Positions 816 to 19,540 of a stretch of DNA of 64,000 nt are shown here, one piece after another; the stretch's first letter is position 1; every line of letters begins with the position of its first letter. The translations under genes were made by a program, and so were the position numbers. The notes below the pieces were generated by a model. The model searched no databases and was not told where the DNA came from. It saw only the letters and a program-made list of their open reading frames with translations. This DNA is from Dipteris shenzhenensis (Eukaryota), in NCBI GenBank assembly GCA_047967505.1, contig CM106538.1, one strand, 5' to 3'.

Positions 816-841
816 AACACTTATTTCATTAATTTTGGACT
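816..841 (+). repeat. Left 26-bp terminal inverted repeat (preceded by TSD AACA at 812-815)
   Basis: Perfect inverted match to 19515-19540. A secondary TACTTTTGGACTA motif lies just inside both ends in inverted orientation. Confidence 0.95.
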
Positions 842-1590
842 CATATGTCTACTTTTGGACTATTCCTTAAAATCCTTCCCAACTGAAAAGTTTACTTTAT
901 GAAACTGTCATTCGAGAATCAAAAGTTTACTTTCTGGCACTATCATTTTCACATAAGACATTTCAAAATATCTCTCTACAATGTTGTACAAATAATGCAA
1001 AAACTACTATTAAATCCTAAATTTGTATTTCTTGTTTATAAGAATCATATTCTTAAAATAAAAAATCCGAGTTATTAGTTTAAATCCATGAAAAACCATG
1101 CTATTGAGGATTCGCAACATTTTAAAAATGTATACATAAGAGACCTGTAAGACTCTTTTTACTTTCAATGCAGAAAACTATAACACTCTTGAATATTCAA
1201 GAAATTAAAAGGTTTATATACACATGAGACATGATGGAAGCCTCTTTTGTACTCCAAAAAATAGCAATAGCTATGCTTGCAATTTTACATTATCATGTCA
1301 TAAGTTTTACAACAAATATTTCTCTGGATGAGTCTTTGTACAAAGGATCTCCTGTGGCCTTTTCAATAATTTAATTTTTCCTTTACAATGAGTTTAGTAC
1401 AAATGGGCGATCCAAACATTTGCTTGTTTGAATGTCCTTTTCTATCATGATCACAGAAATGAGCGATCCAAACATTTGCTTGTTCAGAATGTCCTTTCTG
1501 TCGTCACTTGTCACTTGGGTGCCATCTTCATTCACTCTCATCTGACAACCACCACCACCTTCACTCTTTCTCGATATTTGAATGGTGTTA

Positions 1591-4500
1591 TCATGGGCAT
1601 TCTTCATTTGCGCTATCTCCTTCTACTTCCTCCCGGGCGAGCATCTTTGTGAACTCTGTAATGTGCGTAATAATTGGTTGTGGTAATTTTATTTTGTCTT
1701 CTACATCATACCCCATGTGCTTCTTTGTTTTCTTTGACCTTGATTTCCAGGATACTATGACTGTCTCTGTGGAAAGTCTTGAAATTGCTTCATGGTTTGG
1801 GACCCATTCCTTTTTCAAACAACTACTATACAATGTACTGTTATCTTGGTTCTCCTTCCTGCCCCTTGGCTCATACCATACCGCTGTAAATGTTGTAGCT
1901 CTCCCCCGGTCATCCATGCTCACGTCAACTACTTTTGCAACCCAAAACTTCACGTTCTCATGTTCAATGGTCGAACTGCAACAAAACAATGGACATCTAT
2001 GTCTATTTGTGGCATAAACTCTCTCTTCTTGGGTCCACAATATGGACGTGGGAGCAACGATTCAAACTCATTTTCAAAGAGACCACATGCTGGACGCAAG
2101 TCATTACCAACATTTGGCCAAAATAAAGGCCGTTCTGCCTTAATATCATCTTCTCGCATTTTTGCAAGGTCCTTTATCAATTGGTAGGTCTTGCTAATTA
2201 CAACAGTAGTGTGTTCCTTCCAAGAGGGCTTCCAATCAGGAAATCTCCGGAGCATTTCCTCTTTGTATGCAATAAAAGCTTTTAAGCCTTCTATTTCACC
2301 TTTGGATTTCTCGCTAAATTCTTTTATAGGAGCCCATGTTGGATGCATTTCTTTGCTCGGGATTGAAGTTAAGAGAGAGTAAGGTTCTTCAGGTTCCCAT
2401 TTTGTATCAAGAGAATAGTGTTGCCATTGCATCATTGGTTTTTCATCCTTTAAGAAAAATCGAAAATAGTGTGGAGCGCTATGACCAATCAGGGCATCAC
2501 CACCTTTTTGTATGAAAGGTAGAATAAAGCTCTTCCAATCATACATCCTCTCAACCATTGAGCATATTGTTCCTTCCTTACGGCCACCAACTTGCCTCCC
2601 GCATTTTCTTATCAAGTCATCCATTGTCTCCATGTCCTTGTGTTTTAGTTCTCTTGAAACTGTGCTAAATACCTGATCGATATCCTCATGTGTGTGCCCA
2701 ACCAACAAAAACCCAACTTCAATCTCATTGAAGATTCTATGAGCGATTAGCATTGAGCAAAATGCAAAGAAGAGTACATTCTTATTCTCTCGTCCGCAAT
2801 TGTCTGCTTGTATTCTCAAAGTTGCTAGTAGGCGACCTTTTTCTGCATGTACATTGTGAATTGCCTTCATAACGGATGTTACAACTTGATTGCTATCGTG
2901 TAGATGCAAGGAATCAATCCATATGTCTGCAAAAAACTTAAATCCGTGCACTAACACTCCACATAGATGTGTCTTTAAAAAGTATTTGCCTTGTAGCTTA
3001 GGTGGAGTGTTAACGAATCGAGGTAATGTTGTTGTATTTTGATCCATACCATCTACAATAATGCACATGTACTCATTTGGGTGAGAAATAGCTTGCTCCT
3101 TCCAAAATGCATATTTTATTCTAGAATGTCGAACAAGTCCATGATGAAATTCTCTCTTTCTTTTGTAAGCTTCTTTTTGTTCTAGAGATGTTGCACTCTC
3201 AAGTGCTCGCTTTAGATCATCACAGTCGTTGCACTTTGACATTTTTTGCCTCTTTGGGATTTTAACATGTCCAAAGCTTTTTTTCCAAAGAGTATACAAA
3301 GTATGAAAAGATGCCGGTGTATGCCCTCTTTGCCTCTGTGTTTCTCCAATAGAGTTAAATACTTCTTTTTTGGTCAAACCTATCGGAAGATGCATTTCTG
3401 ATAGGTGGGGTTGCGGTAAAGCATTTTCATAAATGTAATCTTTCAAAATTGCTATTGCCGCAACCGTTGAGGCTCTTGTTTTGGGCCTTCCTATGTTTCC
3501 ATGAATGTTAAATTTAACTCCATACTTTGCTTTATTAGCCAAATTCCAATATGTGCCGTGTGATAATCCTGTGATAATGCGATATGCATTATTGCATATA
3601 CTTTTTCCATTTATACGAGGCCTTATTTGATGTCCTGAACTTCGCCTTCTCTTATCATTTACAAGAAAGCAAGACAATCTCGTGAGTAGGTATTCATTTC
3701 TTCTGCTTCCTTTCCTTTGCCAGACATGTTCTCTACAACCCTTGATGTCATGTAAGTTAATGGATCGCATACATGTATGCTTACAGCATGTAGATCGCAT
3801 TGCTTTTAGCATAACATCTTCATTCATTACTCTTATTCTCTTTGGTTGCTTTTCTGGATCTGCCTGCACTCGTTGTCTTTTCATGCATCTGTATGTCCGT
3901 TTTGGGACCTTCTGTTCATTCTTATTTGGATTTGTGTAGTTCTCCTTGTAAGATTTATTTGTCACGTTGTTTTCATGAGATGTTGCATCCTTGATCTTAT
4001 CACTCTGACAGTCAAATACTGAATATTCCTTTGTTGATGTCATCCTTGCTTTTGATACATTCGTCAAACCATTTGTAACATTTACAAGTTCACAATCAAA
4101 GTCAAACACCGAATAGTCCTTTGTTGATCTCATCCCTACTTTTGATACAATCGTAGAACCACTTGTCACAATGGCATTAGAGTGTCCCGAATGGTCTTCA
4201 AACTCATCTATTCCTGAGAGAACATCACTCATTGATGCACTTTCTATGGATTTCATAACTCCATAGTCAGTGGTGATAGAGTGTCCAGAATGATCTTCAA
4301 ACTCATCTATTCCTGAGAGAACATCGCTCATTGATGCACTTTCTATGGATTTCATAACTCCATAGTCTTGAAACTCCTCTACTCCAGAGAGAACATCACT
4401 CATTATACTATCGTGCATGATTTCCATAATTCCATAGTTACCTGCTTTGACTCCAAGAACTTTATCAGTATCCATGAAGCCATCCATGCTTGAAGATATA

Positions 4501-5318
4501 ACACTTTTCACATCTTTGCCCAAGTTCTCAATGTGCATGAACTCATCCACCCCGGATAAGGCATCACTTGTGAAATATTTTTCTTTCTCGGTACCAATGA
4601 ACTCATCGACTTCTGATAAGACGTCAGTGCTATAGTTGAGTGCATTGGAATCATCCATCTCTGAAGGAATAGAGCTTGGTACATTGGCATATTCTTTCAA
4701 TTCTTTGATGTTGTAGTATACATTATGTTTATCATTAAAAACCACATGCCGAGTCTTTCCAATCTTTAAAAATTGCATGCTCCATCTCAAATCCTTACCT
4801 ACCTCATAGTAGGGACCATCCAATGACATTGAGTTATCATCCATACCATCATCAGTAACTTTTTGAATTCTCATCTGTGCAAATGTCCAGTGTTCAACTT
4901 GTTCAAATCCCAAGACTTGACCTTCTGCTACATACTTATTTGTAAATGATAACATTTGTAAAATATCTCCCACTCTAAAATCCAAAGATATGCACTTTGT
5001 ATTCCTGATGACATGTGTTGGATAAGTCTCATCTCTGTCCCATGCAATAAATGCTTTGTTGGAAGTATTATAGGGCATAACATCTCCAAGGATTTCCATA
5101 TCCCCACACTTATGCTTTAGCTCAACATGTGCACTAAGAATCCTTGATACGATAACCGCTACCTTATCTTCGCCAAGTCTTCTAAAGTGACAAATAGAAT
5201 TTCGATCACTTTCATGGATTGTAGCAAATGCAACTACTTCTCTTTTGCAACATAAAATCACCTCCATCCCCGGAATAAATTTTGTAGCCATCTCCTTTGT
5301 GAGTTTCCTTGCAAACAA
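1591..5318 (-). CDS. DDD-type transposase (DUF7869/Sola-like), with a frameshift near 1968 separating the C-terminal domain
   Basis: The 1122-aa ORF has CC-x3-C and C-x2-C...H zinc-finger-like motifs. Catalytic-type motifs are IIVDGMDQN, LRIQADNCGRENKN and FLLVGHTHEDIDQVFS. The C-terminus (...HCFVAVRP) continues in another frame as IEHENVKFWVAKVV... (ORF 1591..2040). The related remnant at 22701..23036 has both parts in one frame (DFVLVRPLDPIYPIWL...). The ORF opens right after a minus-strand acceptor-like TACAG, so an upstream exon is possible. Confidence 0.88.
4181..4640 (-). repeat. Coding repeats in the transposase N-terminal region (SDVLSG[IV]DEF-like)
   Basis: DYGVMKSIESASMSDVLSGIDEFEDHSGHS occurs twice. 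Related motifs are TDVLSEVDEF, SDALSGVDEF and SDVLSGVEEF. Confidence 0.9.
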
Positions 5319-5419
5319 GCTGTAACAACCATTATAAAGAACATTAGTCTCTTCTCAATAATCTACTTTATTAATGATTTAAAAATCCAGAACGTGTTTG
5401 AAAATTTAATTAGACACTA

Positions 5420-6400
5420 ACCAATAACAACCGTAAACCAATAACAACCCTAAACCCTAAACCGTAAACCAAAACAACCCTAAACCCTAACCAATAACAA
5501 CCCTAAATCCTAAACCCTAACCCCCAAACCCCAAACCCTAAACCCTAACCCCCAAACCCCAAACCCTAACTCCCAAACCCTAAACCCTAAACCCCAAACC
5601 CTAAACCCTAACTCCTAAACCCTAAACCCTAACTCCCAAACCCTAAACCCTAAACCCTAAACCCTAAACCCTTAACCCTAACCCCCAAACCCTAAACCCT
5701 AAACCCTAACTCCCAAACCCCAAACCCTAAACCCTAACTCCCAAACTCGAAACCCTAAACCCTAAACCCTAACTCCTAAACCCTAAACCCTAAACCCTTA
5801 ACCCTAACCCTCAAACCCTAAACTCTAAACCCTAACTCCTAAACCCTAGATCCTAAACCCTAAACCCTTAACCCTAACCCCCAAACCCTAAACTCTAAAC
5901 CCTAACCCCCAAACCCTAAACCCTAACTCCTAAACCCTAAATCCTAAACCCTAAACCCTAACTCCCAAACCCTAAACCCTAAACCCTAAATCCCAAACCC
6001 TAATCCCTAAACCTTAAACTCTAACTCCCAAACCCTAAACCCTAACCCCCGAACCCTAAACCCTAAACCCTAACTCCTAAACCCTAAACCCTAAACCCTA
6101 ACTCCCGAACCCTAAACCCTAACTCCCAACCCTAAACCATAAACCCTAAACCCTAAACCTTAAACTCTAACTCCCAAACCCTAAACCCTACCCCCAAACC
6201 CTAAACCCTAAACCCTAACCCCCAAACCCTAAACCCTAAACCCTAACCCCTAAACCCTAAACCCTAAACCACCAAACTCTAAACCCTAACCCCCAAACCC
6301 TAACCCTCAAACCTTGAACCCTAAACCCTAAACCCTAAACCCTAACTCACCAAACCCCAAATCCTAAACCCAAACCACGAAATCCTAAACCTTAAATCCT
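5420..6400 (+). repeat. Interstitial degenerate plant telomeric repeat array (CCCTAAA)n inside the transposon
   Basis: About 1 kb of AAACCCT units with variants (CCCTAA, CCCCAAA, CTCCCAAA, CTCCTAAA, TCCTAAA), fading at both edges. Confidence 0.95.
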
Positions 6401-6477
6401 ATGAGTGTTTTCAAGTAATATCATTTATTTAAGTAATAGTTTTAATTAGAATTCATAAGTAATAGTGGAATTGATAG

Positions 6478-7375
6478 TTGGGAGGGTGGTAGTGGGAGAA
6501 AGGGAGAGTGGGAAAGTGGAGAAAGGGAGTGTGGGAGGGTGGTAGTGGGAGAAAGGGAGAGTGGGAGAGGGAGTGGGAATGGGGGCGGTGGGGGTGGGGG
6601 TGGGAGGATGGGAGTGGGAGTGGGAGAGGGAGTGGGAATGGGGGAGGTGGGGGTGGGGGTGGGAGAATGGGAGTGGGAGTGGGAGAGGGAGTGGGAATGG
6701 GGGAGGTGGGGGTGGGGTGAGGGTGGGAGGATGGGAGGATGGGAGTGGGAGTGGGAGGGGTGGGGAGTGGGAGTGGGAGGATGGGAGTGGGAGAGGGAGT
6801 GGGAATGGGGGAGGTGGGGGTGGAAGTGGGAGGGGTGAGGTGGGAGGATGGGAGTGGGAATGGGGAGGTGGGGGTGGAAGTGGGAGGGGTGGGGTGGGAG
6901 GATGGGGGAGGGAGTGGGAGTGGGGGAGGTGGGGGGGGTGGGAAAATGGGAGTGGGAGTGGGAATGGGGGAGGTGGGGGGGTGGGAAAATGGGAGTGGGA
7001 GTGGGAGTGGGAGAGGGAGTGGGAGGATGGGAGTGGGAGGGGTGAGGTGGGAGGATAAGGGTGGGAGAATGGGAGTGGGAGTGGGAATGGGGGGGGAGGG
7101 GTGGGGGTGGGAGGATGGGAGTGGGAGTGAGAGGTGTAGGTGGGAGGATGGGAGTGGGTGGGAGAATGGGAGTGGGAGTGGGAGTGGGAATGGGGGAGGT
7201 GGGGGTGGGGTGAGGGTGGGAGTGGGAGGGGTGGGGTGGGAGGATGGGAGTGGGAGAGGGAGTGGAAATGGGGAAGGTGAAAGAATGGGCGTGGGCGTGG
7301 GAGTGAGAATGGGGGAGGTGGGGTGGGAGGATGGGGGTGGGAATGGGGTGGGAGGATGGGAGTGGGTGGGAGAGA
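6478..7375 (+). repeat. G-rich (GGGAGT/GGGAAT/GGGGT)n array, potentially G-quadruplex forming
   Basis: Dense GGG tracts separated by 1-4 nt, with almost no C on the + strand. Confidence 0.9.
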
Positions 7376-7452
7376 GAGAGAAGATAATCTAATAGAGAGG
7401 CCAATGGGAGAGGAGATAATGTTATAGAAGGACCAATGAGAGAGAAGCACTT

Positions 7453-7492
7453 AAAACCCTAGTTTTTCTTATATATACTCTCCTTCTCTCAT
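7453..7492 (+). promoter_or_regulatory. Candidate core promoter: telo-box AAACCCTA, TATATATA and a pyrimidine patch
   Basis: Sequence AAAACCCTAGTTTTTCTTATATATACTCTCCTTCTCTC, followed ~110 bp later by a donor-like CAG/GTACT at 7598. Motifs only; no expression evidence. Confidence 0.3.
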
Positions 7493-7929
7493 TGTTTCTC
7501 TCATTTCAACAAGGAAGAGCAAGAGGAGAAGCAAAAAGAGGAGGAAGAGCAAAAGCAAGCACAAGCAAGCACAAGCATCGATTTCAACTTTTTTCCAGGT
7601 ACTTTTTTAAAAATTTGTATTCTTTGAAATTTTATTATAGAGAGAGAAAAGTGAAGGAAAGATTTTTAGAGAGAGAAAAGAAGAGAGAGAGTCTTGCTGC
7701 CTCGGCAGCAAAAGAGAGAGAGAAAGAGAGAGGGAGAGAGAGGAGAGAAGGGGGGGGAAAGAGAGGGGAGAGAAAGGGAGGGGGGAGAAGAAGAAGAAGA
7801 AGAAGAATATATTATCGTCCTCTGAAGACCAAAGCCGGCCTATGGGACCTGAGCAATACAATATCACAAGTACATGAAAGCTCCTCCCGAAGATGGGAGG
7901 GTGGAAAGAGAAACCACCTTCTAGGATTA

Positions 7930-9830
7930 TTCAGGTGGAGAGAAGGGGGAGGGGGGGAAGAGAGGGGAGAGAGGGGGGAAGCCACGAGGGGGGGGAGAGA
8001 GAGAGGGGAGGGGGAGGCCGCTACCGCGGCAGCGCAGAGGGGGGGAGGGAGGGGAGGGAGAGGGGAGGGGAGAGGGAGGGGGGGCGGCGAGAGAGGGAGG
8101 GGGGGCGGGGAGAGAGAGGGGGGAGAGGGAGGGGAGGCGAGGGGGGAGAGGGAGGGGAGGGGGCCGCTGCCGCGACAGCGGCAGCGAGAGAGGGGGAGGG
8201 GGGGGAGAGGGAAGGGAGGGGGGGCGGGGGCAAGGGGGGGGGGGGCGAGAGAAGGGGGGGCGGTGAGAGGGAGAGGGGAGAGGGAGGGGTGGGGGCCGCG
8301 GCGAGAGAGGGAGGGGGGGCGGTGAGAGGGAGGGGGAGAGGGAGGGGAGGGGGCCGCTGTCGCAGCAGCGACAGCGAGAGAGGGGGAGGGGGGAGGGGAG
8401 GGGGAGGGGAGGGGGGAGAGGGAGGGGAGGGGGCCGCTGCTGCGGCAGCGGCAGCGAGAGAGGGGGAGGGGGGGGAGAGGGAAGGGGGGGGCGGGGGCAA
8501 GGGGGGGGGAGAGAGAAGGGGGGGCGGTGAGAGGGAGAGGGGAGAGGGAGGGGAGGGGGCTGCGGCGAGAGAGGGAGGGGGGGCGGTGAGAGGGAGGGGG
8601 GAGAGGGAGGGGAAGGGGCCGCTGCCGCGGCAGCGGCAGCGAGAGAGGGGGAGGGGGGGGAGAGGGAAGGGGGGAGGGGGGGGGCAGCGAGAGGGAAGGG
8701 GGGGAAGAGAGAGAGAGGGGGGGGCCGCTGCTGCGGCAGCGGCAGCGAGAGAGGGAGGGGAGGGGAGAGAGAAGGGAGGGGGGAAAGGGAGGGGAGGGGA
8801 GGGGGAGAGAGAGAAGGGGGGGGGCCGCGGCCGCTGCCACGGCAGCGAGAGAGGGGGAGGGGGGGAGAGGGAAGGGGGAGAGAGAGAGGGAGAGGGAAGG
8901 GGGGAGAGAGAGGGAGGGGGGAGCGAGAGAGGGGGAGGGGGGGGAGAGAGAAGGGGGGGGCCGCTGTCGCTGCCGCGGCAGCGAGAGAGGGGAGGGGGGA
9001 GAGAGAGGGAAGGGGGGAGGGGGCGGGGGCAGCGAGAGAGAGGGGAGGGGGAGAGAGAGAGAAGGGGGGGGGCCGCGGCCACTGCCGTGGCAGCGAGAGA
9101 GGGAGGGGGGGGAGAGAGAGAAGGGGGGGCGGCGAGAGAGAGGGGGGAGAGGGAGGGGAGGGGAGGGGGAGAGAGAGAAGGGGGGGGGCCGCGGCCGCTG
9201 CCGCGGCAGCGAGAGAGGGGGAGGGGGGGAGAGGGAAAGGGGGAGGGGGCGCGGGCAGCGAGAGAGAGGGGAGGGGGAGAGAGAGAGAGAAGAGGGGGGG
9301 GCCGCGGCAGCGAGAGAGGGGGGGGAGAGAGAGAAGGTGGGGTAGCGAGAGAGAGGGGAGGGAGAGAGAGAGGGGGAGGGGGGGGAGAGGGAAGAGAGAG
9401 GGGGGGCCGCTGCCGTGGCAGCGAGAGAGGAGGGGGGAGAGAGAGTGGGGGGAGATGCGAGAGCGAGAGAGAGGGGGAGGGAGAGAGAGAGAGGAGGGGG
9501 GGCCGCTGCCGCGGCAGCGAAAGAGAGGGAGGGGTGGAGAGAGAGAGAGAGAGAGGGGGGGGAGAGAGAGAGAGGGGGGGAGGCCGCTGCCGCGGCAGCG
9601 AGAGGGAGAGAGGGGGGAGAGAGAGAGAGAGAGGGGAGGGGGGGGGAGGTCGCGGCAAGTGAGAGAGAGAGTGGGGAGGAGAGTGGGGAGCGTAAGTGAG
9701 AGAGAGGGAAAAGGTGAGGAGAAAGGGAGAGAGAGAGGGGAAATGAAGAGGAGGGGAGAGAGTAGACTAAGATGAGAGGAAACGTAGACTAGAGCGGAGA
9801 GGAAAGAGAGAGAGAGAAGAGTGAGAGAGA
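7930..9830 (+). repeat. GA-rich polypurine array punctuated by GCCGCTGCCGCGGCAGCG(GC) palindromes
   Basis: Long G/A-only runs with recurrent CG-rich dyads. GCCGCTGCCGCGGCAGCGGC at 8618-8637 is a perfect 20-bp palindrome. A short composite copy recurs at ~10855-11085. Confidence 0.9.
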
Positions 9831-10236
9831 TGAAAATTTAGAGAGGGAGGACACGAGAAAGTACGATTGAGATAGAAAATCTTACCAATGAAGAGGAGAA
9901 ATGAGTGGGCGACGATCGAGACAAGATGAAGAAGCTACGATCAATGAGGCATATGAGAGGAGATTGGTATGTGATTTAGTCTAAACTTAAACAAACAAAA
10001 CTATAAACCTTGGTGTTTGATGAAAATTTAGAGAGGAAGGGCACAAGAGAAAGTACGATCGAGATAAAAAATCTTACCAATGAGGAGAAAAAATGAGTGG
10101 GCAACGATCAAGAAGAGATAAAGGAGAGATGTTTTGATGGAAGAATTTGGGAGCTATGATCAATGAGGCATATTAGAGGAGATTGGTGTGTGATCTAGTC
10201 GAAACTTAAACAAACAAAACTATAAACCTTGGTGTT
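9828..10236 (+). repeat. Imperfect ~200-bp tandem duplication
   Basis: GATGAAAATTTAGAGAG...AAATCTTACCAATGA...AAACTTAAACAAACAAAACTATAAACCTTGGTGTTTGA occurs twice. Confidence 0.8.
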
Positions 10237-11083
10237 TGAAAAGAGAAACGTGTGGAAACTAGAATTTCAAATTTCCCGCCTTTTTTTAAACTATGAATCC
10301 TTGTGTTTGAAAAGATAAACGTGTGAAAACTTGAAAATTGTGATAAAAGACAACCTTGTGTTTCAAAAGACAAATGCGTGGATGTGAAAAGACAAATGTA
10401 TGCTAAAAGCAAAACTTGTAGAAACTTGAATTTTAAATTTTTCTTTGTTTTTGAATTTAAAATGAGTTTCACTTTCATTTTTAATTTACTAGTTTAATTT
10501 AGACTATAATGCATTTTGTTTTGGAATATAAAAAGTATAATTTTAATTTTATTACATTTTAAATTAAAATTTTAAAAGTAGTTTAACTTACATTCGTTAT
10601 TATTACTTTAATTTATTTCTTTTTAGGGAGAATTAATATATTCTTCTAGGTAAATATTAAATTTTTAATTTTAAGTCTTGTTTTCTTTATTTTACGTTAT
10701 TTTTTCATAAACTTTAAGTTAAACTACTTTATAGTTTTTATTATTTAAATTCAAATTTATTAAGATTTTAACTTCTTATTAATGTGAATGTTCAATTCTT
10801 ATGAGTTGTAAGTAAATTAGTTTTTGAAAATATAAATTTTATCTTTTTTAAAATGAGAAGGAGAAGGGAGAGAGAGAGAAGGGGGGGGCCGCTGCCGCAG
10901 TAGCGAGAGAGAATGGGGGGGGAGAGAGAGAGAAAGGGGTGGGAGGATGGGAGTGGGAGAGGGAGTGGGAATGGGGAAGGTGAAAGAATGGACGTGGGCG
11001 TGGGAGTGAGAATGGGGAAGGTGGGGTGGGAGGATGGGGGCGGCAGCGAGAGAGAAGGGGGGGGAGAGAGAGAGAGAAAGGGG

Positions 11084-11133
11084 TGTGAGTTTAAAAAAGA
11101 TAAAATATAAATTTTATCTTTTTTAAACTCACA
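11084..11133. repeat. Perfect 23-bp hairpin with 4-nt loop
   Basis: TGTGAGTTTAAAAAAGATAAAAT-ATAA-ATTTTATCTTTTTTAAACTCACA. Confidence 0.9.
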
Positions 11134-11616
11134 ACCTTAGTGTATTAAAAAGAATAATGGAAAATAGATTATTTTTTGCTTTTAATTTGCAACCTAAGGA
11201 TATTAAAAAGAACAATGGAAAAGAAATTATTTCTTGCTTTTCTTCGCTTCGACGGTTGGTGTAGTCTAGATTAGCATAGATTAGTTTGTCCTTAGAGGAG
11301 AGAACTCCAAAAAAACCAATCAAAGCCATGCTCAAAATTTCCCGACTAGTTCCTAATCGGAGTCAGTCCATTCGTTCACATTCGGTTTCACAGTCACAAC
11401 AACCCTACCATTTAAGCAACGATTAAGGTTTTTAAACTTTCAAGATGATTGAAAGTTGTATCAGTGGACATGACAGATTACAGATTACAGTTGTGGAAGT
11501 TGACAGAGCATTTTACACTTATATCAGTTGCGGGAGTTGACAGAGCATTTTGTACTTATATATGACAGACTTCAAATTTATATTCAGAGATCATTGTAAA
11601 TCCTTATTTTTTTTCA

Positions 11617-11757
11617 CATTTATGCTCTAAGCCTTGTAAAGCCTTTTAGGCTATTCCCAAAGCATTTATGCTCTAAGCCTTGTAAAGCCTTTTAGGCTAT
11701 TCCCAAAGCATTTATGCTCTAAGCCTTGTAAAGCCTTTTAGGCTATTCCCAAAGCAT
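11617..11757 (+). repeat. 46-bp tandem repeat, 3 identical copies
   Basis: CATTTATGCTCTAAGCCTTGTAAAGCCTTTTAGGCTATTCCCAAAG starts at 11617, 11663 and 11709. Confidence 0.95.
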
Positions 11758-11889
11758 GAAATTGATACTTATATGATTGGGAAGAATAAAAACTTGAGGT
11801 GTATTAATGGGACTCATTGTACTTTTGATTTTTCAAAGTAATTGTAGTTTGTCAAAGTACTTAAAATTTGTGTTGTGCTTGAATACAGG

Positions 11890-14800
11890 ATGGATCTTGA
11901 GGCTACAGCATTTGTCAATGGTATGACACTGAAATACAATGGAAGAATTTATGCCCCAAAGGACTTCACAAACTGGACAGTTGTTGACACAACAAAGAAA
12001 GCATGGTTCTTGGTCTTAAGTAAAGGAAATCTCATTCTAGTGATGACAAAGAGAGAGTTGGAGAAAGATGAGTGCGCATCAAATGTATCTTTCTCAAAGA
12101 GCAATTTGATTCAAGGGGGCACCTTAGTAGGAATAAAAATTGAAAAAGACAGCAGTACAATGATGATTTACACAAAGTCAAGAATGAGCAACAGATCGTT
12201 TCTTCTTTCTAAGAAAGATGCAGTGCACTTTGTGATGCCGCCGCCAAAAGCACCTAGATTTCCTAAATTGGTTCCTGCATTGGAGATCCTTCAACATGTG
12301 TGGGAGGAATTTCCCATTGAGGAAGCAAGAAAAATGCAGTCAAAGATTATCCTTGAATACTTTCAGGGTGTCATCCAACAAGGTTCAACTTCATTGGAGG
12401 GACCTAAGGTGCAAGAATCCACACATGAGAAAGGAAGTGATGAGACACGCCATGTAGATTTGGTTCATGGTAATACAAATGAGAGAGGAAGTGGAGTGGA
12501 TGAGACAGAACACATTGTAGCAATGGATGAGGGTCTTGTACACGTGGATGCTTACAAGGGATCTACATCTGAGACAGGAATTGAATTGGTGGAGACCGGA
12601 CATGCACATGCATCTCAGACAGAAATTGAATTGAGTGAGACACGACATGCATCAGATAAGACAGGACATGCACACACATCTCTTGTTCATGGTATTACTC
12701 ACTTAGATGGTGTAACTCATGAAGTTGATGGAATAACAGAACAAGTGAAGCCCTTAAGTATACCTGAAGTTGAGGCAATAGAAGAAGAAGTAGGGCGATC
12801 TAAAGCAGTTCACATTGAGCCCCTAAAAAGTAAACCTCGACGTCAAATGCAAAAGGCAAGTACTTCACGAGCTACAGTTCCAAGTCCTATAACTGGAAAA
12901 AGAGGTCGTTCATATACAAAGAAAGGGCAAAGAAGAGAAGAGGAAGAACATGAAGAGGATGCGGAGGGTCTTGAAATGGAGTCAGATCTAGAAGCAGAAA
13001 TGTTATCAATGAAGAACCTAAATCTTCGCTTGAATGAGGCTGTGACAGATGAGGATCCAGGATATATATGGGGCCAGAAGACTCAAGTTATACATGCTTC
13101 AATAGTGGTCAAAGCAAGTGTCTTCACCAACAGCAGGACCTTAGATACAGCCTATGCTGAAAAGATTTTTCAGGCTTTGATTGATGGAAAAAAACCAGTT
13201 GTTTCTAATTTGGTACTCCGTCCAAGAACATTTTGGCCAGTCATGGGAGATTATAGTCAATCCATCAATTTCTCTCAGCCTATAGATTTTGAGATGCAAT
13301 TCACTAAGTTCCTCGGAAAACAAGTTCCCTCACTTCAAGAAGGACAGAGTTTAGTGAATGATCCAGAACGACATATAAGGGATGCCAAGAGAAATTTCTT
13401 AGCTCATTGTACATTTGAGGCAATAGATGGTCAGCACTATGCCGATGCTTGTAATGAGCGCTCTAGAGATGCATACAAGAAAGGAGAAATTACTTATCAA
13501 ACCTTCGCGAGTGTGCCTCAATTTCACTACTATTCTGCATGCATCTGTATCTTCAAGAACGAGAAAACATATTTGATTGAGTCGGAAAGACTTAATCATG
13601 ACATTTATGCACTACGAAAAATCACCTCCACTTCAGAGATGTTGCTCAAAGCTAGGACCATATGGAAAACTTTTAATTCTCCTTTGACCACTCTCAAAAG
13701 AACTGCAACTAAAGTGGAAGCGGATAATCTTGTTGACTTCTACACATGCTTGAGTGCCACTATACCAAGGGGAAAACAGGGAAGAGCTGAGGTGATTACA
13801 AGCTTCAAGACAGTAAGGGATAGGTATCAAGACTACACAAGCATACTTTTCCGTAGTGATGAAGTTTTTCATCAGATCAAAGACGTGTGTCTTGCATGTG
13901 AGAAAGGAGATGTTACATATGAGGCTCCATCATTGATTAAAGAGAAGGCAAAGAAGATTGAGAAAAAAGAGATGACAGCTCGGATGTGGAGGCCTTTAAG
14001 AAACCTACCAGACAAATACGCAAGTCTTGCTGTAGAGAAATTAATGTCCAAAGAATGGTTTTTTGGCAAAAAGGATAAAGATCATTGCATGGAAGATAAC
14101 ATCATCCAACAGGTCAAGCGTGATGCAGTAAAGAGTGCAATTGAATATTTATTGAGGCAGATGGCATCAGCTTTACCGTCAGCTAAACAGAAGGCTTGGG
14201 CGCATAAATGGGTGAAGGTAGAAGATGATGGATCTGAAATTACTCCCTCTATGAGAAGTGACATTCCGGAAAATGTGTATGCATATGCACAAAAAGTCAT
14301 CAATAACCACACTCTCAGAAAAGAAAAGACTTTGAACAAGGGCTTTTATTTCATACATGAAATCATTTCAGAGTCTGGAAAGAGTGTTGAGTGCAAGGGA
14401 GTTTCATTGAGTGATTTTTTGTCCGACGACACTGCTTGGGAGAGACCTCAGCTTTTCTTTGTCTATGAAATATCACCGGATGACATCCATCCACTCCTTG
14501 ACAGAATATTACATACCACCATTGGTAGAGTGGGACAATGTAATATAGTCATATTTGCTGATAAAGATGACAAGGAACAAATGTGTGCTACCCTAAAAAA
14601 ACAATATGGCAATGAGCTCAAGATTTACAATGGGATATACTCAAGAAAAAGGGACAAGAGAGAATGCGGTCTCAAGATACAGAGTCTAGAAACCTTTTTC
14701 TGGTGCATGAAGAGCCCTTACAATGATCACTCCTTACAAAACAATATAAGAGGGAATGCAAAGAGATTGCAACTACTGCTGGAAGAGCATGAAGCTCCAA

Positions 14801-17675
14801 GTCCCCTCCATCACAACGCAAATCACTATGAAAGGCCAGCAAAAAGTGCTGATCTTTTAATTAGTATGATGGAATTTTTGCTACTGTCCGGATGGGAAGT
14901 CACATTGTGCCGAATGGGACATCTGTTTGAAGCTCTTATCAGAAAAGGACACAATGTAAATATTATTGAGAGCCCTGCTTGCTTGGAATACCTTGATACC
15001 GTGGCTTCTCTCACAATAAAGTTTGATAAGGAAGGTCCGATCTCACATGAAGAGGATGACATAGAGCAGATCATGTATGATGAGAGCAAGAAAGATGATG
15101 AAAATGATCAAAGCTCTGGATATAATAGTGAGGAAACTAGCGATAGCAAGGAAGCAGAAGAAGATGGATATGACACTGACCTTGCCTCTGAAGGTTACAT
15201 AAAAAGACCACGAAGATATGTAGAGGTATGAAGACTTATGTTTAATTTTCTTTATTCATTTAAAGGTCTTTTTTAATTTATAATTAATTTAAAATTTTGA
15301 ATCTCATAATTATTTTATCCTTTTATAGGAGAAGGGAGAGGAGGAGGATGAGGAGGACATAGTTGGAGCAGAGAATATAGAAAGCTCATCTCAAGAAAGC
15401 AAAGCTGCTCTGGCTATCCATCGGATGACTCTAGAAAATAATCATACATTGCAACAAATGGAGAAGTCATTTCAAGTTAGGTTTCAAGTTCGAGAACAAC
15501 CTCTTACTTTTATATTCGATGAAGAGGACATTTCAATCCTCATAAACTTCAAGAAAGAGGTCAATGACAAGGTTATAATAGCCATCCTCAGGTTTGACAC
15601 AAACTTTTTACTGACTTTATGCTTTTGTATTTCCATTGGATCAAATGAACTAATATTCTTTTCTTTTTATTGCAGTATGGTTTTAAAACAGCTTCCGCTA
15701 TATATACAAAGATGTGCATATATGGTCGATCCTCTTGTTTCTAGTGTACTTAGCAATAAGCAGAAGACCATAGATGACGTTTTTAAGTGGTTGCAACCTA
15801 TTGATTTGACTGCGGCGCGAGTTATCTTTACCGCATATCACAAGGAGTGAGTATCAATCCCTACCTAGCTTATCTCTTACATTGTGGAGGATTATATCAA
15901 ATAATAATTATTCTTAATTGATAATGCAGCTTGCATTGGAGCTTGGTAATTGTGGACATCTTAGCCAAGCAATGCTTCTTTGTCAACTCAATAGCATCTA
16001 TCCATGGCAGTGTGTCAGAGTAAGTATAACCTACTTGTGTCATAATTATGTCAATGAGATGCATCCTATGCAATGCGCACATTCATTTATGTTTTCTATT
16101 TTGATGTGTAGATCTGCTCGAAAGTTGGTAAGTGCTATAGATGCACTTATGCAAATGGAGGGTGACTTGGAAGATCAAATAGAGTATGTAACATGCCCTG
16201 CAGCGAAGCAGAATGATGACCACAGTTGTGGGTGGAGAGTTGGATATAACTGCTTCTTGCTCCTTGCTCAAATTTTTGATTTGAGAGGCGGTGAAACCTC
16301 ATTGTCCACATATACAGACTTGCATCTATATGCATTTATGTCATCTATCATTAAGGCATTTATTGATAACGTGGTGGAGCATCTAGAGGAAACATTGGTT
16401 GCTACGTCCATAAGTTGTCCTGATGTAACCGCTGTATTGGACGAAATGGGGAGCTCTTCTGAGGTTAAGGTCATCATTAGCAAGCAACCTCGTGTTTTGA
16501 CTTTTGGTAGCGAGGAAGTTACAATCCTCTCCGACCCTTTGAAAGAGGCTAATGACAAAGTCATGATGGCCATCCTCAGGTTTGATATGAACATCTCTTG
16601 ACTTGATACTTCAATCATTTGATTCAATCTGCTTCTAACATTTGTTTATTTATTGCTGCAGAGTACGGTTATATCTCATTTTCCTAGATCAGTACAGAAT
16701 CGCGTCTGTATGCTCGATTCTCTTCTTTCAGCTGTACTTAGTGATACCAAGAAGACAGTAGATGATGTTTGTTCAATTCTACAACCTTTAGACTTGGATG
16801 GCATACTACTTGTCTTTATGCCATACTATGAGAAGTAAGTATGGTCTCAATCTTTCTTTTACTCTCTTATTTATAATATTGTGTCAATTAATACTTAATA
16901 TTGTGATAAATCTTATCGCTCTTTATTGGTGATGTAGTTCACATTGGAGCCTGATAGTATGGGACCTTGATGACAACCATTGTTGGTTTGTCAACTCAAT
17001 TACAGGCTTTCACGGGGTGTTCAAGTAAGTGTTCTTTTATCATATCATTATGAACATGCATCTTACTATTTACTACACAAATTCACTTTGTCATATGTCA
17101 TGATGGACAGGTCTGCAAACAAGTTAGTTTCTGCGATTATGAAAACCAGGGAGCATCAAGACCAACCAAATTTCCAGACACGCCTCGCAGTGGACCAAAA
17201 AGACATGTTTAGTAGTGGGTGGAGAATTGCCTACAACTTCATGTTGTATCTCAATGAAATTTTTGAACATGTCTCCATAGAAGCATATACCAAGCTCGAG
17301 CTACAAGATTTTGTGGCTAAGACTGTTCACTATCTAACTGCTATCATTGGGAAACAACATGATGGACTCAATGAAGAACTTGAGGGAGCCAAAGAAAAAG
17401 AAGAGATAATTCAGTCTCCTTCTGTATCACAGCCTCAAGTAGAAGCATTACAGTCTACACTTGAATTAGAGACTCAATGCATTCTTCCTACACAAGAAGT
17501 GGAGACTCAATGTGCATCTACAACATCACATCTTGTAAAGGAGGAAGAGATTAAGTCTATCCCGATTGCACCAGAAGTAGAATCTCAATGTACACCATCC
17601 ACACAAGTAGAGACTCAATGTACTCTTAGAGAATCACAACCTCAAGAGGACTCATCAGACTCTATTCAGTTGTAA
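11890..17675 (+). CDS. Multi-exon transposon cargo gene: large exon (ParB/DGQH-like and degenerate DNA-MTase-like motifs) spliced to two tandem Ulp1/peptidase C48-like domains
   Basis: Proposed exons are 11890-15225, 15329-15591, 15676-15846, 15930-16019, 16112-16579, 16664-16834, 16938-17024 and 17111-17675. All introns are GT-AG and frame-consistent, although 16664 needs the second AG of CAGAG. The spliced product has DLHWSLVIVD..FFVNS..KQNDDHSCGWRV and NSHWSLIVWD..WFVNS..DQKDMFSSGWRI. Exon 1 has RTLDTAYAEKIFQAL...FEAIDGQHY and KSADLLISMMEF...G..V...G...ALIRKGHNVNIIE. Confidence 0.75.
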
Positions 17676-17859
17676 AACATGTAGAAAGAAACATGAGTTC
17701 TTGAAGATTTTTATCTTGTTTGTATTGATTAATGATAGTGTTTTTAAAACTTATGTTAAATGTTGCAATACATTAGGATATTTTATGATATTTATTCATT
17801 ACAATACATTAGGTTTTACTTTTTTGAAAGTCTAATTTATTATGTACAATAAATATCTT

Positions 17860-18110
17860 ATGATGAGAATCTAATAATTATATCATTCTTATGTTCCATC
17901 ACTTTATTTTATAGATTTCAATGTACTCAAAATCTATCATTTATTATGTACAGCAAGTCTAACTTATATTATATTAAAAGAATATCTCATGATGAGATTC
18001 TAATAATTACTAACTTATATTATATTAAAAGAATATCTCATGATGAGATTCTATTAATTATATCATTCTTGTGTTCCATCATTTTACTTTATAGATTTCA
18101 ATGTACTATC
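17860..18110 (+). repeat. AT-rich local duplications downstream of the cargo gene
   Basis: AACTTATATTATATTAAAAGAATATCTCATGATGAGATTCTA is tandemly repeated. TAATTATATCATTCTT...ATAGATTTCAATGTACT occurs twice. Confidence 0.75.
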
Positions 18111-18279
18111 ACTATCTTATATGTCTCAAATGTCTCCCATTACGGTCTTGCATCCCATCATTTTATTTTATAATGTCTCGCATTACGATCTTGCATCTAG
18201 TCATCTCGCATTACGGTCTTGCATCTGTAGTTCTATAAATTCCCTAGTAGTCGTTCATCTTCTATATCTCACCCGCAGC

Positions 18280-18670
18280 AGACACTTCTTCCACTTTGCT
18301 CTTCTTACCTTACTCCTCTCCTCAAGCTTGCTCCTTCCTCTCCTCAAGCTTGCTCCTTCCATCTTGCCCGCAGCCTTGCCTCCTCTTCTCAAGCATACTC
18401 CTTTCATCTTGCCTTATCTCCTCTAGTTACCTTCCTCACTCTCGTTACCTTCCTCACCTCGTTCGTCTTCTATATCTTTCCTCACTCTCGTTACCTTCCT
18501 CACCTCGTTCGTCTTCTATATCTCACCCGTAGCAAAAACTTCTTCCACTTTACTCCTCTCCACACTTCTTCCACTTTACTCTTCTTACCTTACTCCTCTC
18601 CTCAAGCTTGCTCCTTCCATCTTGCCCGCAACCTTACCTCCTCTTCTCAAGCATACTCCTTTCATCTTGT
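18280..18670 (+). repeat. Pyrimidine-rich duplicated segments upstream of the small ORF
   Basis: CACTTCTTCCACTTT...CTTCTTACCTTACTCCTCTCCTCAAGCTTGCTCCTTCC...AGCATACTCCTTTCATCTTG is present twice. TTCCTCACTCTCGTTACC repeats lie between the copies. Confidence 0.8.
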
Positions 18671-18677
18671 AGCCATT

Positions 18678-19112
18678 ATGGATCTTTTTAAGGTAATCGA
18701 TTCTGTCGAGCAAGCCATTAGCAGCCTCAAAGAATGGATTGCCGAGAACCAAGGAAAGAGAGAGGAGAGAAAGCAAAATCCAGCTTCATTAACCCAGTAC
18801 GAGAAGGATGACTTTGCTTGTCAGAAGGGCTTAGAGAAGGAAGAGGAAAGAAAAATAAGTATGGCTACTACTGAAATAGATAAATTGCAGTCATATAGGA
18901 GAGAGTTGATAGACTTTCAAAGTGAGATATCTTCGCGTGTGGCTCGTTATGGAAGATTTTCCCCCGAGGAAGCGCAAGCCATTCGGAACAAACAAAGTGT
19001 TATGCAGGAGAAAATTCATCAATCCTTACTTCTCTTCTATAATTTTAACTACATCGATGAGGAAGAGATGAGCTCAGCTCTTGAATGGGTTGAATTTAGG
19101 CTAAGGACTTGA
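18678..19112 (+). CDS. Small charged, coiled-coil-like protein (144 aa), possible third transposon gene
   Basis: Clean ATG-to-stop ORF, E/K/Q-rich with heptad-like pattern. TATA-like CTATAAAT at ~18233 and a pyrimidine-rich leader lie upstream. No family recognised. Confidence 0.5.
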   Translation: MDLFKVIDSVEQAISSLKEWIAENQGKREERKQNPASLTQYEKDDFACQKGLEKEEERKISMATTEIDKLQSYRRELIDFQSEISSRVARYGRFSPEEAQAIRNKQSVMQEKIHQSLLLFYNFNYIDEEEMSSALEWVEFRLRT

Positions 19113-19140
19113 AAATAGAAAATTCATCAAATTGAATGGC

Positions 19141-19352
19141 TGTAGTCTTGAAAATCTCAGGCTTAACTTTTGAAGGTGTTTATTAACACCATTAAATATT
19201 AAGAGAGTTTACAACAACCGAATCTTATTTTTTCATGTAACTTATGTAGTCTTGAAAATCTCAGGCTTAACTTTTGAAGGTGTTTATTAACACCATTAAA
19301 TATTAAGAGAGTTTACAACAACCGAATCTTATTTTTTCATGTAACTTATGTA
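19141..19352 (+). repeat. 104-bp tandem duplication in the right subterminal region
   Basis: TGTAGTCTTGAAAATCTCAGG...CATGTAACTTA starts at 19141 and 19245. Each copy contains the dyad GGTGTTTATTAACACC. Confidence 0.92.
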
Positions 19353-19514
19353 GGCTGCGTTAAATTTTATAATTTTAGTTTCATGTCCTTAAAAAATATA
19401 TATAAAAATGCTTGTTTTTATGTTTTTATATGTGCTTTGAAGATTGGGTTTTTCTTAAATTTTATCTAAAAACTAGTCCAAAAGTATATGTAAAAATGAA
19501 TTTGTACATTAACA

Positions 19515-19540
19515 AGTCCAAAATTAATGAAATAAGTGTT
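19515..19540 (-). repeat. Right 26-bp terminal inverted repeat (followed by TSD AACA at 19541-19544)
   Basis: AGTCCAAAATTAATGAAATAAGTGTT is the reverse complement of 816-841. Confidence 0.95.

What the first reader, a model, noticed from the sequence alone, without database searches (positions are those of the whole stretch)
816..19540. An 18.7-kb cargo-carrying TIR transposon with intact ends: transposase, telomeric array and a ParB-like/MTase-like/Ulp1 cargo gene
Seen in sequence: perfect 26-bp TIRs, a 4-bp AACA TSD, flanks that rejoin seamlessly, two large divergently oriented genes, a small ORF, and ~6 kb of telomeric and G-rich DNA between the genes. Established knowledge: Sola-superfamily DNA transposons make 4-bp TSDs and use DDD catalytic residues, and most cut-and-paste elements are only a few kb. 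Inference: this is a giant Sola/DUF7869-type element with its own chromatin- or SUMO-modulating toolkit. I do not recognise this architecture as described. Perfect TIRs and long open frames suggest recent activity. This is the best candidate for an undescribed system in the window.
Basis: partly seen in the sequence, partly recalled or inferred. Interest (0 to 1): 0.92.

Follow-up and report, generated by a model that had tools for sequence, protein, structure and literature searches.

The report
Large Sola-like transposon with Ulp1-type passenger gene
This is a real, recently inserted 18.7-kb cut-and-paste DNA transposon in a plant-type genome that carries, besides its transposase, a large gene with two protease-like domains and long simple-repeat arrays; it is an unusual member of a known kind, not a new kind of system.

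Summary
There are perfect 26-nt inverted ends at 816-841 and 19515-19540. A 4-bp AACA duplication flanks them, and removing the element restores a 48-bp satellite unit.

The minus-strand 1134-aa ORF matches Pfam DUF7869 (E 5e-49). Its modelled core is a DDE/D RNase-H-like transposase fold. A degenerate relative in metagenome contigs has ends 22/26 identical and a 4-bp ATAT duplication.

The plus-strand gene is an intact 8-exon, 1716-aa model. It ends in two tandem Ulp1-like units with the catalytic spacing of Ulp1, but Asn replaces Asp in both, and Ser replaces Cys in the second. The "ParB-like/MTase-like" label has no profile support. It rests only on weak language-model leads and a conserved DGQH motif.

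Between the genes lie a degenerate TTTAGGG-type array (136 units) and about 3.4 kb of G-rich arrays. No nested element was found there.

One correction: the transposase's conserved C-terminal domain is out of frame, so this copy may be defective.

Sola membership fits (4-bp duplication, acidic triad) but could not be tested against Repbase. No second copy with this cargo could be examined. Verdict: new variant of a known kind, moderate interest.

The parts
812..815 (.). Left copy of the 4-bp target site duplication (AACA)
   Evidence: the flank is a 48-bp satellite unit, and the empty site is restored when one AACA and the element are removed
816..841 (+). Left terminal inverted repeat, 26 nt
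   Evidence: 100% complementary to 19515-19540; 2 matches against 0 expected
853..861 (+). Subterminal TTTTGGACT motif. Further copies lie at 833-841 (+), 19475-19483 (-) and 19515-19523 (-). Candidate transposase-binding sites.
   Evidence: all 4 of 4 occurrences in the window lie within 70 bp of the two ends, in inverted orientation (1.13 expected). A binding role is inferred.
1591..1956 (-). Conserved C-terminal domain of the transposase, in a different frame from the main ORF. The frame change lies at about 1957-1971.
   Evidence: the C-termini of homologues P0004, P0005, P0009 and P0013 align here in frame -1 (E 4e-6 to 5e-8), while the main ORF is in frame -2. No Pfam family.
1953..5291 (-). 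Transposase ORF (Met at 5291, stop at 1950-1952). DUF7869 covers residues 788-981, which is 2412-2993. Candidate catalytic residues are D768, D851 and E890/D891, with a CxxC at C708/C711.
   Evidence: (PF25273, E 5e-49, 166.9 bits)
5446..6401 (.). Degenerate telomere-type array, (AACCCTA)n on the plus strand, 136 units, 77% matches. It begins about 155 bp upstream of the transposase start codon.
6480..9836 (.). G-rich and GA-rich tandem arrays (GC up to 0.77, G on the plus strand). A small island of the same repeat lies at about 10853-11080.
11617..11757 (.). Perfect 46-bp x 3.1 tandem repeat, 130 bp upstream of the second gene's start codon
11890..17675 (+). Second gene: 8 exons (11890-15225, 15329-15591, 15676-15846, 15930-16019, 16112-16579, 16664-16834, 16938-17024, 17111-17675), 1716 aa. 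It holds a conserved DGQH core near residue 513 and two tandem Ulp1-like units (His 1259 and His 1502).
   Evidence: 7 of 7 introns are GT-AG, 83-103 nt, with no internal stop. The model comes from sequence only; there is no RNA evidence.
18690..19112 (+). Small 140-aa ORF, coiled-coil-like, of unknown role
   Evidence: only sub-threshold coiled-coil families
19515..19540 (-). Right terminal inverted repeat, 26 nt
19541..19544 (.). Right copy of the target site duplication (AACA). It is the first 4 nt of the next 48-bp satellite unit.

Best explanation
Bases 816-19540 are one young insertion of a cut-and-paste DNA transposon whose transposase belongs to Pfam DUF7869. This is a DDE/D RNase-H-fold enzyme, and it most likely corresponds to the Sola superfamily (inferred).

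Shown:
- Perfect 26-nt TIRs.
- A 4-bp staggered-cut footprint (AACA).
- An empty site that can be reconstructed.
- A transposase core with invariant acidic residues in the expected positions.

Inferred mechanism:
- The transposase binds the TIR and the subterminal TTTTGGACT motifs, excises the element, and integrates it with a 4-bp stagger.
- The element also carries a divergently oriented, apparently intact 1716-aa gene. Its conserved middle (DGQH motif) belongs to a rare eukaryotic family, and its C-terminus holds two tandem, possibly weakened or inactive Ulp1-like (SUMO-protease-type) domains.
- I read this as an element-borne accessory or passenger gene of the kind known from plant MULE/CACTA elements. 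Its function is untested.
- The 6.5-kb space between the two genes is filled by tandem arrays (telomere-like and G-rich). I read these as expansions of a repeat-prone central spacer, not as a proven functional module.
- In this copy the transposase's conserved C-terminal domain is out of frame. The copy may depend on another copy's enzyme, unless the shift is an assembly error.
For: TIRs and TSD: TIRs; TSD and restored satellite junction.

Transposase family: DUF7869 at E 5e-49. 31 homologues were found at E<=1e-3, the best 35-36% identical, and all 31 carry PF25273.

Catalytic residues: in an alignment of 25 sequences, D768, Q849, N852, K858 and H887-I892 are invariant; D851 and D893 are conserved in 90% or more.

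Fold: the AF2 model of the core has pLDDT 79.3. Of the 24 best VIA-align rows, 23 are retroviral or Ty3 integrases or Mos1, Metnase, Sleeping Beauty, IstA or TnsB transposases and one is a TnsABCD transpososome chain. Z runs from 10.4 to 7.5, typically at rmsd about 3 A over 125-180 residues, and the matches span residues 223-409, which hold the three acidic positions. Foldseek gives the same families weakly.

Relative: L066 (the same insertion as in L069 and L071) has a DUF7869 remnant, ends 22/26 identical to these TIRs, and ATAT on both sides. L078 has the same 20-nt terminus at its right end.

Second gene: model. The two Ulp1-like units are 38.7% identical (E 4e-51) and have His, +17 Asn, Gln, +6 Cys/Ser geometry. 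ESM features of exon 5 point to Peptidase_C48 clusters at 0.87, which is a lead only.

Single unit: no internal TIR-like sequence and no nested coding element.
Against: - Only this one copy could be studied. Copy number, TSD consensus and conservation of the cargo are therefore unknown.
- None of the 80 fetched metagenome loci with DUF7869 relatives holds a relative of the second gene by tblastn at E<=1. Most of those contigs are short, and the two TIR-related ones are decayed.
- AACA does not fit the AWWT target preference reported for Sola1/Sola2.
- Pfam Peptidase_C48 does not hit any contiguous piece of the gene at E<=10. The catalytic Asp is Asn in both units.
- The transposase C-terminal domain is out of frame.
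- The G-rich arrays could not be checked against reads.
Confidence: 0.72

Rival explanations
1. The element is a cut-and-paste transposon, but DUF7869 transposases are not Sola. They would form a separate, not yet named DDE/D superfamily that also makes 4-bp duplications, or they would belong to another known one.
For: - Homology to Repbase Sola1-3 was never tested here, because no Repbase is available.
- A full-text search for 'DUF7869' found 0 papers.
- AACA is not AWWT.
- The third catalytic position could be E890 rather than D891. That would make a DDE and not the DDD reported for Sola.
Against: - A 4-bp TSD was seen in 2 of 2 elements where both ends could be read (this one, and L066 with ATAT, which does fit AWWT).
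- The size, the variable TIR length and the occurrence in non-seed plants agree with the review's description of Sola.
Confidence: 0.2
2. The second gene is not a lineage gene of this transposon family. It would be a host gene, or a fusion of host gene fragments, captured recently by this one copy, as in Pack-type elements. It would have no role in transposition.
For: - No relative of it lies beside any of the 80 DUF7869 loci.
- It keeps introns while the transposase has none.
- Its family occurs in other eukaryotic sequences, including a lycophyte protein.
Against: - It is complete and long (1716 aa, 8 exons, no stop), not a fragment as in most Pack-type captures.
- Ulp1-like domains are a recurrent transposon-borne feature in plants. 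This is recalled knowledge; the two papers holding ULP1 with transposon terms were seen only as search listings.
- The two best ESM clusters have 62 and 55 members, which suits a multicopy gene. This is a lead only.
Confidence: 0.3
3. Part of the interior (the telomere-like and G-rich arrays, 5.4-9.8 kb) is an assembly artefact or a post-insertion expansion private to this copy. The true element would then be about 12-13 kb.
For: - The block is extreme in composition (GC 0.77, G-skew 0.74) and is pure low-complexity sequence.
- It could not be checked against reads.
- The relative L066 is 11.3 kb.
Against: - L066 and L078 also carry internal tandem arrays upstream of the transposase, with a different sequence (a GGTGGCCACC-type unit). 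A repeat-rich central spacer therefore looks like a family trait.
- The telomere-like array has a higher-order variant structure, not read noise.
Confidence: 0.2
4. This is not a transposon. The inverted repeat and the 4-bp repeat would be chance features, or the block would be a composite of two elements.
For: Only one instance was seen.
Against: - 0 of 100 shuffles give even one 26-mer match.
- The insertion splits a satellite unit exactly.
- No internal TIR-like site exists at up to 7 mismatches.
- A homologous terminus bounds a DUF7869 remnant in other contigs.
Confidence: 0.02

Closest known systems
Sola superfamily DNA transposons (Sola1/2/3; Bao et al. 2009, not readable here; described in PMC10741241, passages read)
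   Same: TIR-bounded, with a 4-bp TSD and an acidic-triad transposase. Sizes are 2-9 kb with some over 15 kb, TIRs are 11-1124 bp, and the superfamily is present in the moss Physcomitrella and in ferns. The relative L066 has an AWWT-type TSD (ATAT).
   Different: The TSD here is AACA, not AWWT. Homology of DUF7869 to Sola transposases was not tested. No paper in the searchable library holds both 'Ulp1' and 'Sola1'.
Sola2-Fanzor chimeric elements of dictyostelids (PMC3627910, passages read)
   Same: A Sola-type transposase arm plus a second arm that encodes an unrelated large protein. They have short TIRs and 4-bp TSDs, and some have a 7-kb transposase arm.
   Different: The passenger there is a Fanzor/TnpB-like protein. 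Here it is a DGQH-core protein with two Ulp1-like domains, and tandem arrays lie between the arms.
ULP1-carrying plant MULE and CACTA elements (e.g. grapevine, PMC2528002; review PMC13317346; both seen only as search listings; KI-MULEs and Zisupton recalled from memory)
   Same: A cut-and-paste transposon carries a Ulp1/C48-like protease domain in addition to its transposase.
   Different: The transposase superfamily and the TSD length differ. Here the Ulp1-like module is duplicated in tandem, has Asn for the catalytic Asp, and is fused to a 1100-aa N-terminal part of unknown family.
Transposon-internal tandem repeats that seed satellites (review PMC6947457, search listing only)
   Same: Tandem arrays lie inside a DNA transposon, between the coding region and the ends.
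   Different: Here one array is telomere-type (TTTAGGG variants, 136 units) and lies directly upstream of the transposase gene. I found no description of that in the searches run.

Membership tests
Pfam DUF7869 (PF25273) | Match to the family HMM above the gathering score | tested here: met
   166.9 bits against a cut-off of 26, E 5e-49, residues 788-981 covering profile positions 4-190 of 192
DDE/D (RNase-H-like) cut-and-paste transposases | RNase-H-like catalytic fold with three conserved acidic residues (after beta-1, after beta-4, and on the following helix) | tested here: met
   D768 is invariant, D851 is conserved in 90% or more, and E890 and D891 are invariant in 25 sequences; these residues sit at the end of strand 243-251, after strand 326-331, and at the start of helix 371-386 of the model. 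Z 10.4-7.5 to integrase, Mos1, IstA and TnsB cores. Catalysis itself was not tested.
Sola superfamily | 4-bp target site duplication | tested here: met
   AACA here; ATAT in the relative L066
Sola superfamily | AWWT-type target preference (reported for Sola1 and Sola2) | tested here: inconclusive
   1 of 2 readable insertions fits (ATAT fits, AACA does not). The preference is as stated in PMC3845634 and PMC3627910. Two sites cannot define a preference.
Sola superfamily | Significant sequence similarity of the transposase to Repbase Sola1, Sola2 or Sola3 transposases | not testable with these tools
   No Repbase or Sola alignment is available. Bao et al. 2009 and Yuan & Wessler 2011 are not held.
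Sola superfamily | DDD (rather than DDE) triad | tested here: inconclusive
   E890 and D891 are both invariant and adjacent. Sequence alone does not say which of them binds the metal.
Peptidase_C48 (Ulp1/SENP) | Match to the Pfam PF02902 profile | tested here: inconclusive
   No hit at E<=10 on contiguous exon pieces. The domain is split over 4 exons in different frames, and the spliced protein could not be handed to the profile tools. ESM features of exon 5: the best named clusters carry PF02902 at score 0.87, which is a lead only.
Peptidase_C48 (Ulp1/SENP) | His-Asp-Cys triad with a Gln six residues before the Cys | tested here: not met
   Unit 1: His1259, Asn at +17 where Asp is expected, Gln1320, Cys1326. 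Unit 2: His1502, Asn at +17, Gln1558, Ser1564. The spacing equals that of yeast Ulp1 (H514, D531, Q574, C580; recalled from memory), but the Asp is missing in both units and the Cys is missing in the second.
ParB_N (PF02195) / N6_N4_Mtase (PF01555) | Profile match; the DGxHR-type ParB motif; the (D/N/S)PP(Y/F/W) methyltransferase motif | tested here: not met
   - 0 of 12 family members match either profile at E<=10.
- PHROGs and NCBIfam gave nothing relevant; tblastn against 50,697 phage records gave 2 chance-level hits.
- The PP(Y/F/W) motif is absent in the gene and in 4 homologues.
- A conserved V/I-D-G-Q-H...A-C motif resembles the ParB core but lacks the Arg.
- ESM leads reach only 0.76-0.78.
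- The AF2 model is poor, at pLDDT 43.5.

The most novel reading that the evidence does not exclude
A lineage of Sola-like transposons of non-seed plants or streptophyte algae has a fixed three-part design:
- a transposase;
- a conserved 1700-aa accessory protein, combining a ParB/Srx-like DGQH nucleotide-binding or nuclease core with a double Ulp1-like SUMO-recognition or protease module, which acts on host chromatin or on SUMO-dependent silencing;
- a telomere-repeat array placed at the divergent promoter, which recruits host telomere-repeat-binding (telobox/TRB-type) factors to control or shield the element's expression.

In other words, the transposon would borrow telomere chromatin identity.
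Probability: 0.1. Interest if true: 0.8.

Novelty: new variant of a known kind. Interest (0 to 1): 0.5.

Why it matters
Sola-type elements are rare and poorly described in plants. One survey counted Ginger and Sola together as only 9 of 3203 recently active TIR clusters in 1007 plant genomes, and it searched only elements of 2-12 kb. Elements like this one would therefore be missed.

This copy has exact boundaries, a checkable empty site, and an apparently intact 1716-aa passenger gene of a family with almost no relatives: 10 hits among 1.84 billion representative proteins.

If further copies show that the gene and the telomere-like array are conserved, three things would follow:
- The recurring but unexplained link between plant transposons and Ulp1-like domains would extend to another superfamily.
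- There would be a concrete case for testing whether transposons use telomere-repeat chromatin.
- Pfam DUF7869 could be given a function (transposase).

Tried and rejected
**Whole genome.** None is held.

**Sequencing runs.**
- The look-up of sequencing runs on 11500-19540 listed 3 DNA holders in 2 studies, with word shares 0.64, 0.40 and 0.07. No RNA holder was listed.
Empty sites, other insertion sites, read support for the arrays and expression all remain unseen. The unlaid shares are not used as evidence.

**Homologues of the second gene.**
- The word-based searches found none, at near length or shorter.
- The full HMMER search found 10 hits, 4 of them at E<=1e-10 and mostly fragments.

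**Relatives in metagenome and viral contigs.**
- Run instead with the transposase alignment, it kept 80 loci out of 432 confirmed relatives. None of the 80 holds a relative of the second gene.
- A script looking for TIR/TSD pairs was run on 34 of the 80 loci (the longer ones). It gave only two usable cases: L066 with ATAT, and L028 with AAAA inside an A-run, which I do not count.
- A TIR pattern scan of viral contigs gave 3 matches, all without a transposase nearby, so they are chance.
- The records behind L066 and L078 could not be searched for the missing left end of L078.

**Structure and profile searches.**
- AF2 of the cargo core was poor (pLDDT 43.5). Its best structural matches are generic Rossmann-like domains at Z<=7.0, which the tool says may mean only a common arrangement. 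No methyltransferase or ParB is among the 50 rows.
- PDB sequence searches gave only low-complexity matches.

**Other checks.**
- The GGTGGCCACC repeat of the relatives is absent from the window.
- Earlier-findings look-ups gave nothing relevant.
- Papers by Bao 2009 and Yuan & Wessler 2011 are not held.
- A short intron as the explanation for the transposase frame change was rejected. The only in-phase GT...AG pair would be 44 nt long and would delete conserved residues (my reading).

Full report
**1. The observation**

The arms 816-841 and 19515-19540 are 26 nt long and 100% complementary. The 26-mer with up to 3 mismatches is found 2 times in the window, against 0.00 expected in 100 shuffles. 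Even at 7 mismatches it is found only at these two places.

The element sits inside a short 48-bp satellite: one unit at 764-811, then 3.6 units at 19541-19713. AACA stands on both sides, at 812-815 and 19541-19544. Removing the element and one AACA gives the same unit-to-unit junction that is seen in the uninterrupted units. This built-in control fixes the target duplication at exactly 4 bp.

A 9-nt motif, TTTTGGACT, occurs 4 times in the window. All 4 lie within 70 bp of the two ends, in inverted orientation. I infer that they are transposase-binding sites.

**2. The transposase**

ORF 1950-5354 on the minus strand has 1134 codons, with Met at 5291. It matches Pfam DUF7869 with 166.9 bits, E 5e-49.

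A word-based search found 31 relatives, the best 35-36% identical. All 31 carry PF25273, and nearly all come from unnamed metagenome or Logan contigs. One is a nemertean protein.

In an alignment of 25 sequences, the following are invariant: D768, Q849, N852, K858 and the run H887-I892, which includes E890 and D891. D851 and D893 are conserved in 90% or more. A CxxC pair (C708, C711) is also invariant.

An AlphaFold2 model of residues 520-1134 has mean pLDDT 79.3. D768 sits at the end of a strand, D851 just after a strand, and E890/D891 at the start of a helix. This is the RNase-H-like arrangement.

Against about 48,000 PDB representatives, 23 of the 24 best rows are retroviral or Ty3 integrases or Mos1, Metnase, Sleeping Beauty, IstA or TnsB transposases, and the other is a TnsABCD transpososome chain. 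Z runs from 10.4 to 7.5, typically with rmsd near 3 A over 125-180 residues, across the part that holds the three acidic positions. Foldseek gave the same families at E about 1e-3. DUF7869 is therefore a DDE/D transposase domain.

One correction is needed. The homologues have a further conserved domain of about 120 aa at the C-terminus. In the window it lies at about 1591-1956, in a different frame from the main ORF. The C-termini of P0004, P0005, P0009 and P0013 align there at E 4e-6 to 5e-8, whereas P0003 gave no hit. The change of frame lies at about 1957-1971. A plausible intron does not explain it. This copy therefore has either a frameshifted transposase or an assembly error there.

**3. 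Relatives and the target duplication**

A scan of metagenome contigs with the transposase alignment confirmed 432 relatives, of which 80 loci were kept. A script that looked for inverted repeats around the match was run on 34 of these 80, the longer ones.

- **L066.** This is the same insertion as in L069 and L071. It is an 11.3-kb element with a decayed DUF7869 remnant near one end. Its termini are 22/26 identical to the TIR of the window element, and ATAT stands on both sides.
- **L078.** It has the same 20-nt terminus at its right end. Its left end lies outside the fetched DNA.

The terminus is thus conserved over a family, and 2 of 2 readable insertions have 4-bp duplications.

According to passages in PMC10741241, Sola elements encode a DDD transposase and make 4-bp TSDs. 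They are mostly 2-9 kb but sometimes over 15 kb, have TIRs of 11-1124 bp, and occur in Physcomitrella. Passages in PMC3845634 and PMC3627910 give AWWT as the typical Sola1/Sola2 target. ATAT fits that preference and AACA does not.

Direct homology to Repbase Sola transposases could not be tested. Repbase is not available, and the two defining papers are not held.

**4. The second gene**

ORF 11848-15231 continues through seven GT-AG introns of 83-103 nt. The result is an 8-exon, 5151-nt coding sequence of 1716 codons with no internal stop, spanning 11890-17675. This model comes from sequence only.

*The middle part.*
- No Pfam, PHROG or NCBIfam family matches.
- A full HMMER search of 1.84 billion representatives gave only 10 hits, 4 of them at E<=1e-10. 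Most are fragments, and one is a hypothetical protein of the lycophyte Diphasiastrum complanatum.
- The family shares a conserved V/I-D-G-Q-H...A-C motif.
- ESM-Atlas features put it beside two unnamed Streptophyta clusters (0.97 and 0.93; 62 and 55 members; 813 and 1673 aa). It lies at only 0.76-0.78 from phage ParB_N/N6_N4_Mtase clusters, which the tool rates as leads only.
- The methyltransferase PP(Y/F/W) motif is absent.
- The AF2 model is poor, at pLDDT 43.5. Its best matches are generic Rossmann-like domains at Z<=7.
- I therefore do not accept 'ParB-like/MTase-like' as shown.

*The C-terminal third.* It consists of two tandem units that are 38.7% identical (E 4e-51).
- Each unit has an NDKV(I/M) motif, an HWSL motif, Asn 17 residues after the His, and Gln-x5-Cys (unit 1) or Gln-x5-Ser (unit 2).
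- The spacings (+17, +61, +67 in unit 1) equal those I recall for yeast Ulp1 (H514, D531, Q574, C580; from memory).
- ESM features of exon 5 give Peptidase_C48 clusters as the best named hits at 0.87, which is a lead.
- Pfam does not hit the contiguous exon pieces. The spliced protein could not be given to the profile tools.

I read these units as Ulp1-like domains with a changed triad. They are possibly weakened or binding-only.

**5. The interior**

Between the two divergent start codons (5291 and 11890) lie, in order:
- a degenerate TTTAGGG-type array of 136 units, 77% matching, with a higher-order pattern of variants, starting 155 bp upstream of the transposase ATG;
- about 3.4 kb of G-rich and GA-rich arrays;
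- an AT-rich stretch with a roughly 200-bp duplication and a small island of the G-rich repeat;
- a perfect 46-bp x 3.1 repeat just upstream of the second gene.

No TIR-like sequence, LTR-like direct repeat or nested coding element was found inside. The interior is therefore not a set of nested insertions.

The relatives L066 and L078 also have internal tandem arrays upstream of the transposase remnant, but with another unit that is absent here. A repeat-prone central spacer thus looks like a family trait. The telomere-type content is so far known only from this copy.

**6. Context**

The window is rich in transposable elements. Copia-type gag, integrase and RT fragments lie at 21.4, 27, 37.9-42 and 56.7-59.6 kb.

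At the left edge, 13-696 on the minus strand encodes the N-terminal part of a second DUF7869-family transposase. It is 32% identical to P0001 residues 440-653 (E 3e-33) and is cut by the window start. The 48-bp satellite lies directly upstream of it. The 18.7-kb element may therefore have landed in the upstream repeat region of an older, distantly related element. This is inference.

The TTTAGGG-type repeat, the short GT-AG introns, the Copia elements, the lycophyte homologue and the Streptophyta clusters all point to a plant or streptophyte host.

**7. How it most likely works**

- **Shown:** the ends, the 4-bp footprint, and a DDE/D-fold transposase.
- **Inferred:** the transposase binds the TIR and the subterminal motifs, cuts the element out, and joins it to target DNA cut with a 4-bp stagger.
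- **Age of the insertion:** it is young. The TIRs are 26/26, the TSD is 4/4, the 8-exon gene is intact, and several internal tandem duplications are 100% identical.
- **Autonomy:** because its own transposase lacks an in-frame C-terminal domain, this copy may have been moved by another copy's enzyme.
- **The second protein:** it is most likely an element-borne accessory or passenger protein. By analogy with other Ulp1-carrying plant transposons, a role in SUMO-dependent processes is possible but untested.
- **The arrays:** I read them as neutral expansions. A regulatory role for the telomere-type array is the bold alternative.

**8. Novelty**

The kind is known: a Sola-like TIR transposon, large Sola elements, passenger genes in Sola2, and Ulp1 domains in plant transposons. 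The combination was not found in print in the searches run:
- 'DUF7869': 0 papers;
- 'Ulp1' together with 'Sola1': 0 papers;
- interstitial telomeric repeats together with DNA transposon, TIR and plant: 10 papers, 9 listed, none on such an element judging by title and abstract start.

Supplementary files of papers were not consulted. I rate it a new variant of a known kind. The main open point is that only one copy could be studied.

Noticed in passing
window 13-696 (minus strand): N-terminal part of a second, distantly related DUF7869-family transposase. It is 32% identical to residues 440-653 of the element's transposase (E 3e-33) and is cut off by the window start. The 48-bp satellite that received the insertion lies directly upstream of it.
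   Followed up: partly
L066 1203-12475 (same insertion in L069 and L071); L078 right end at 13337: Decayed elements of about 11.3 kb in metagenome contigs. Their termini are 22/26 identical to this element's TIR and are flanked by ATAT. They carry internal tandem arrays built on a palindromic GGTGGCCACC-type unit.
   Followed up: partly
window 20041-20981: Foldback or MITE-like structure: 37-nt inverted ends (92% complementary) around a 281-bp x 1.9 tandem repeat and long internal inverted repeats. No clear target duplication is visible at the ends.
   Followed up: partly
window 21440-21982, 26980-27834, 37914-42022, 56719-59556: Copia-type LTR retrotransposon fragments (gag, integrase, RVT_2), several with broken frames. 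The region is a transposon-rich stretch.
   Followed up: no
window 10827-11136: A 230-bp island of the G-rich repeat is bracketed by AT-rich inverted repeats (26 nt, 92-96% complementary). This may be a trace of how the G-rich repeat spreads.
   Followed up: no
window 4178-4438 (transposase N-terminal region): A 99-bp in-frame tandem duplication (96% matches) repeats a Ser/Asp-rich 33-aa unit in the non-conserved N-terminal half of the transposase.
   Followed up: no
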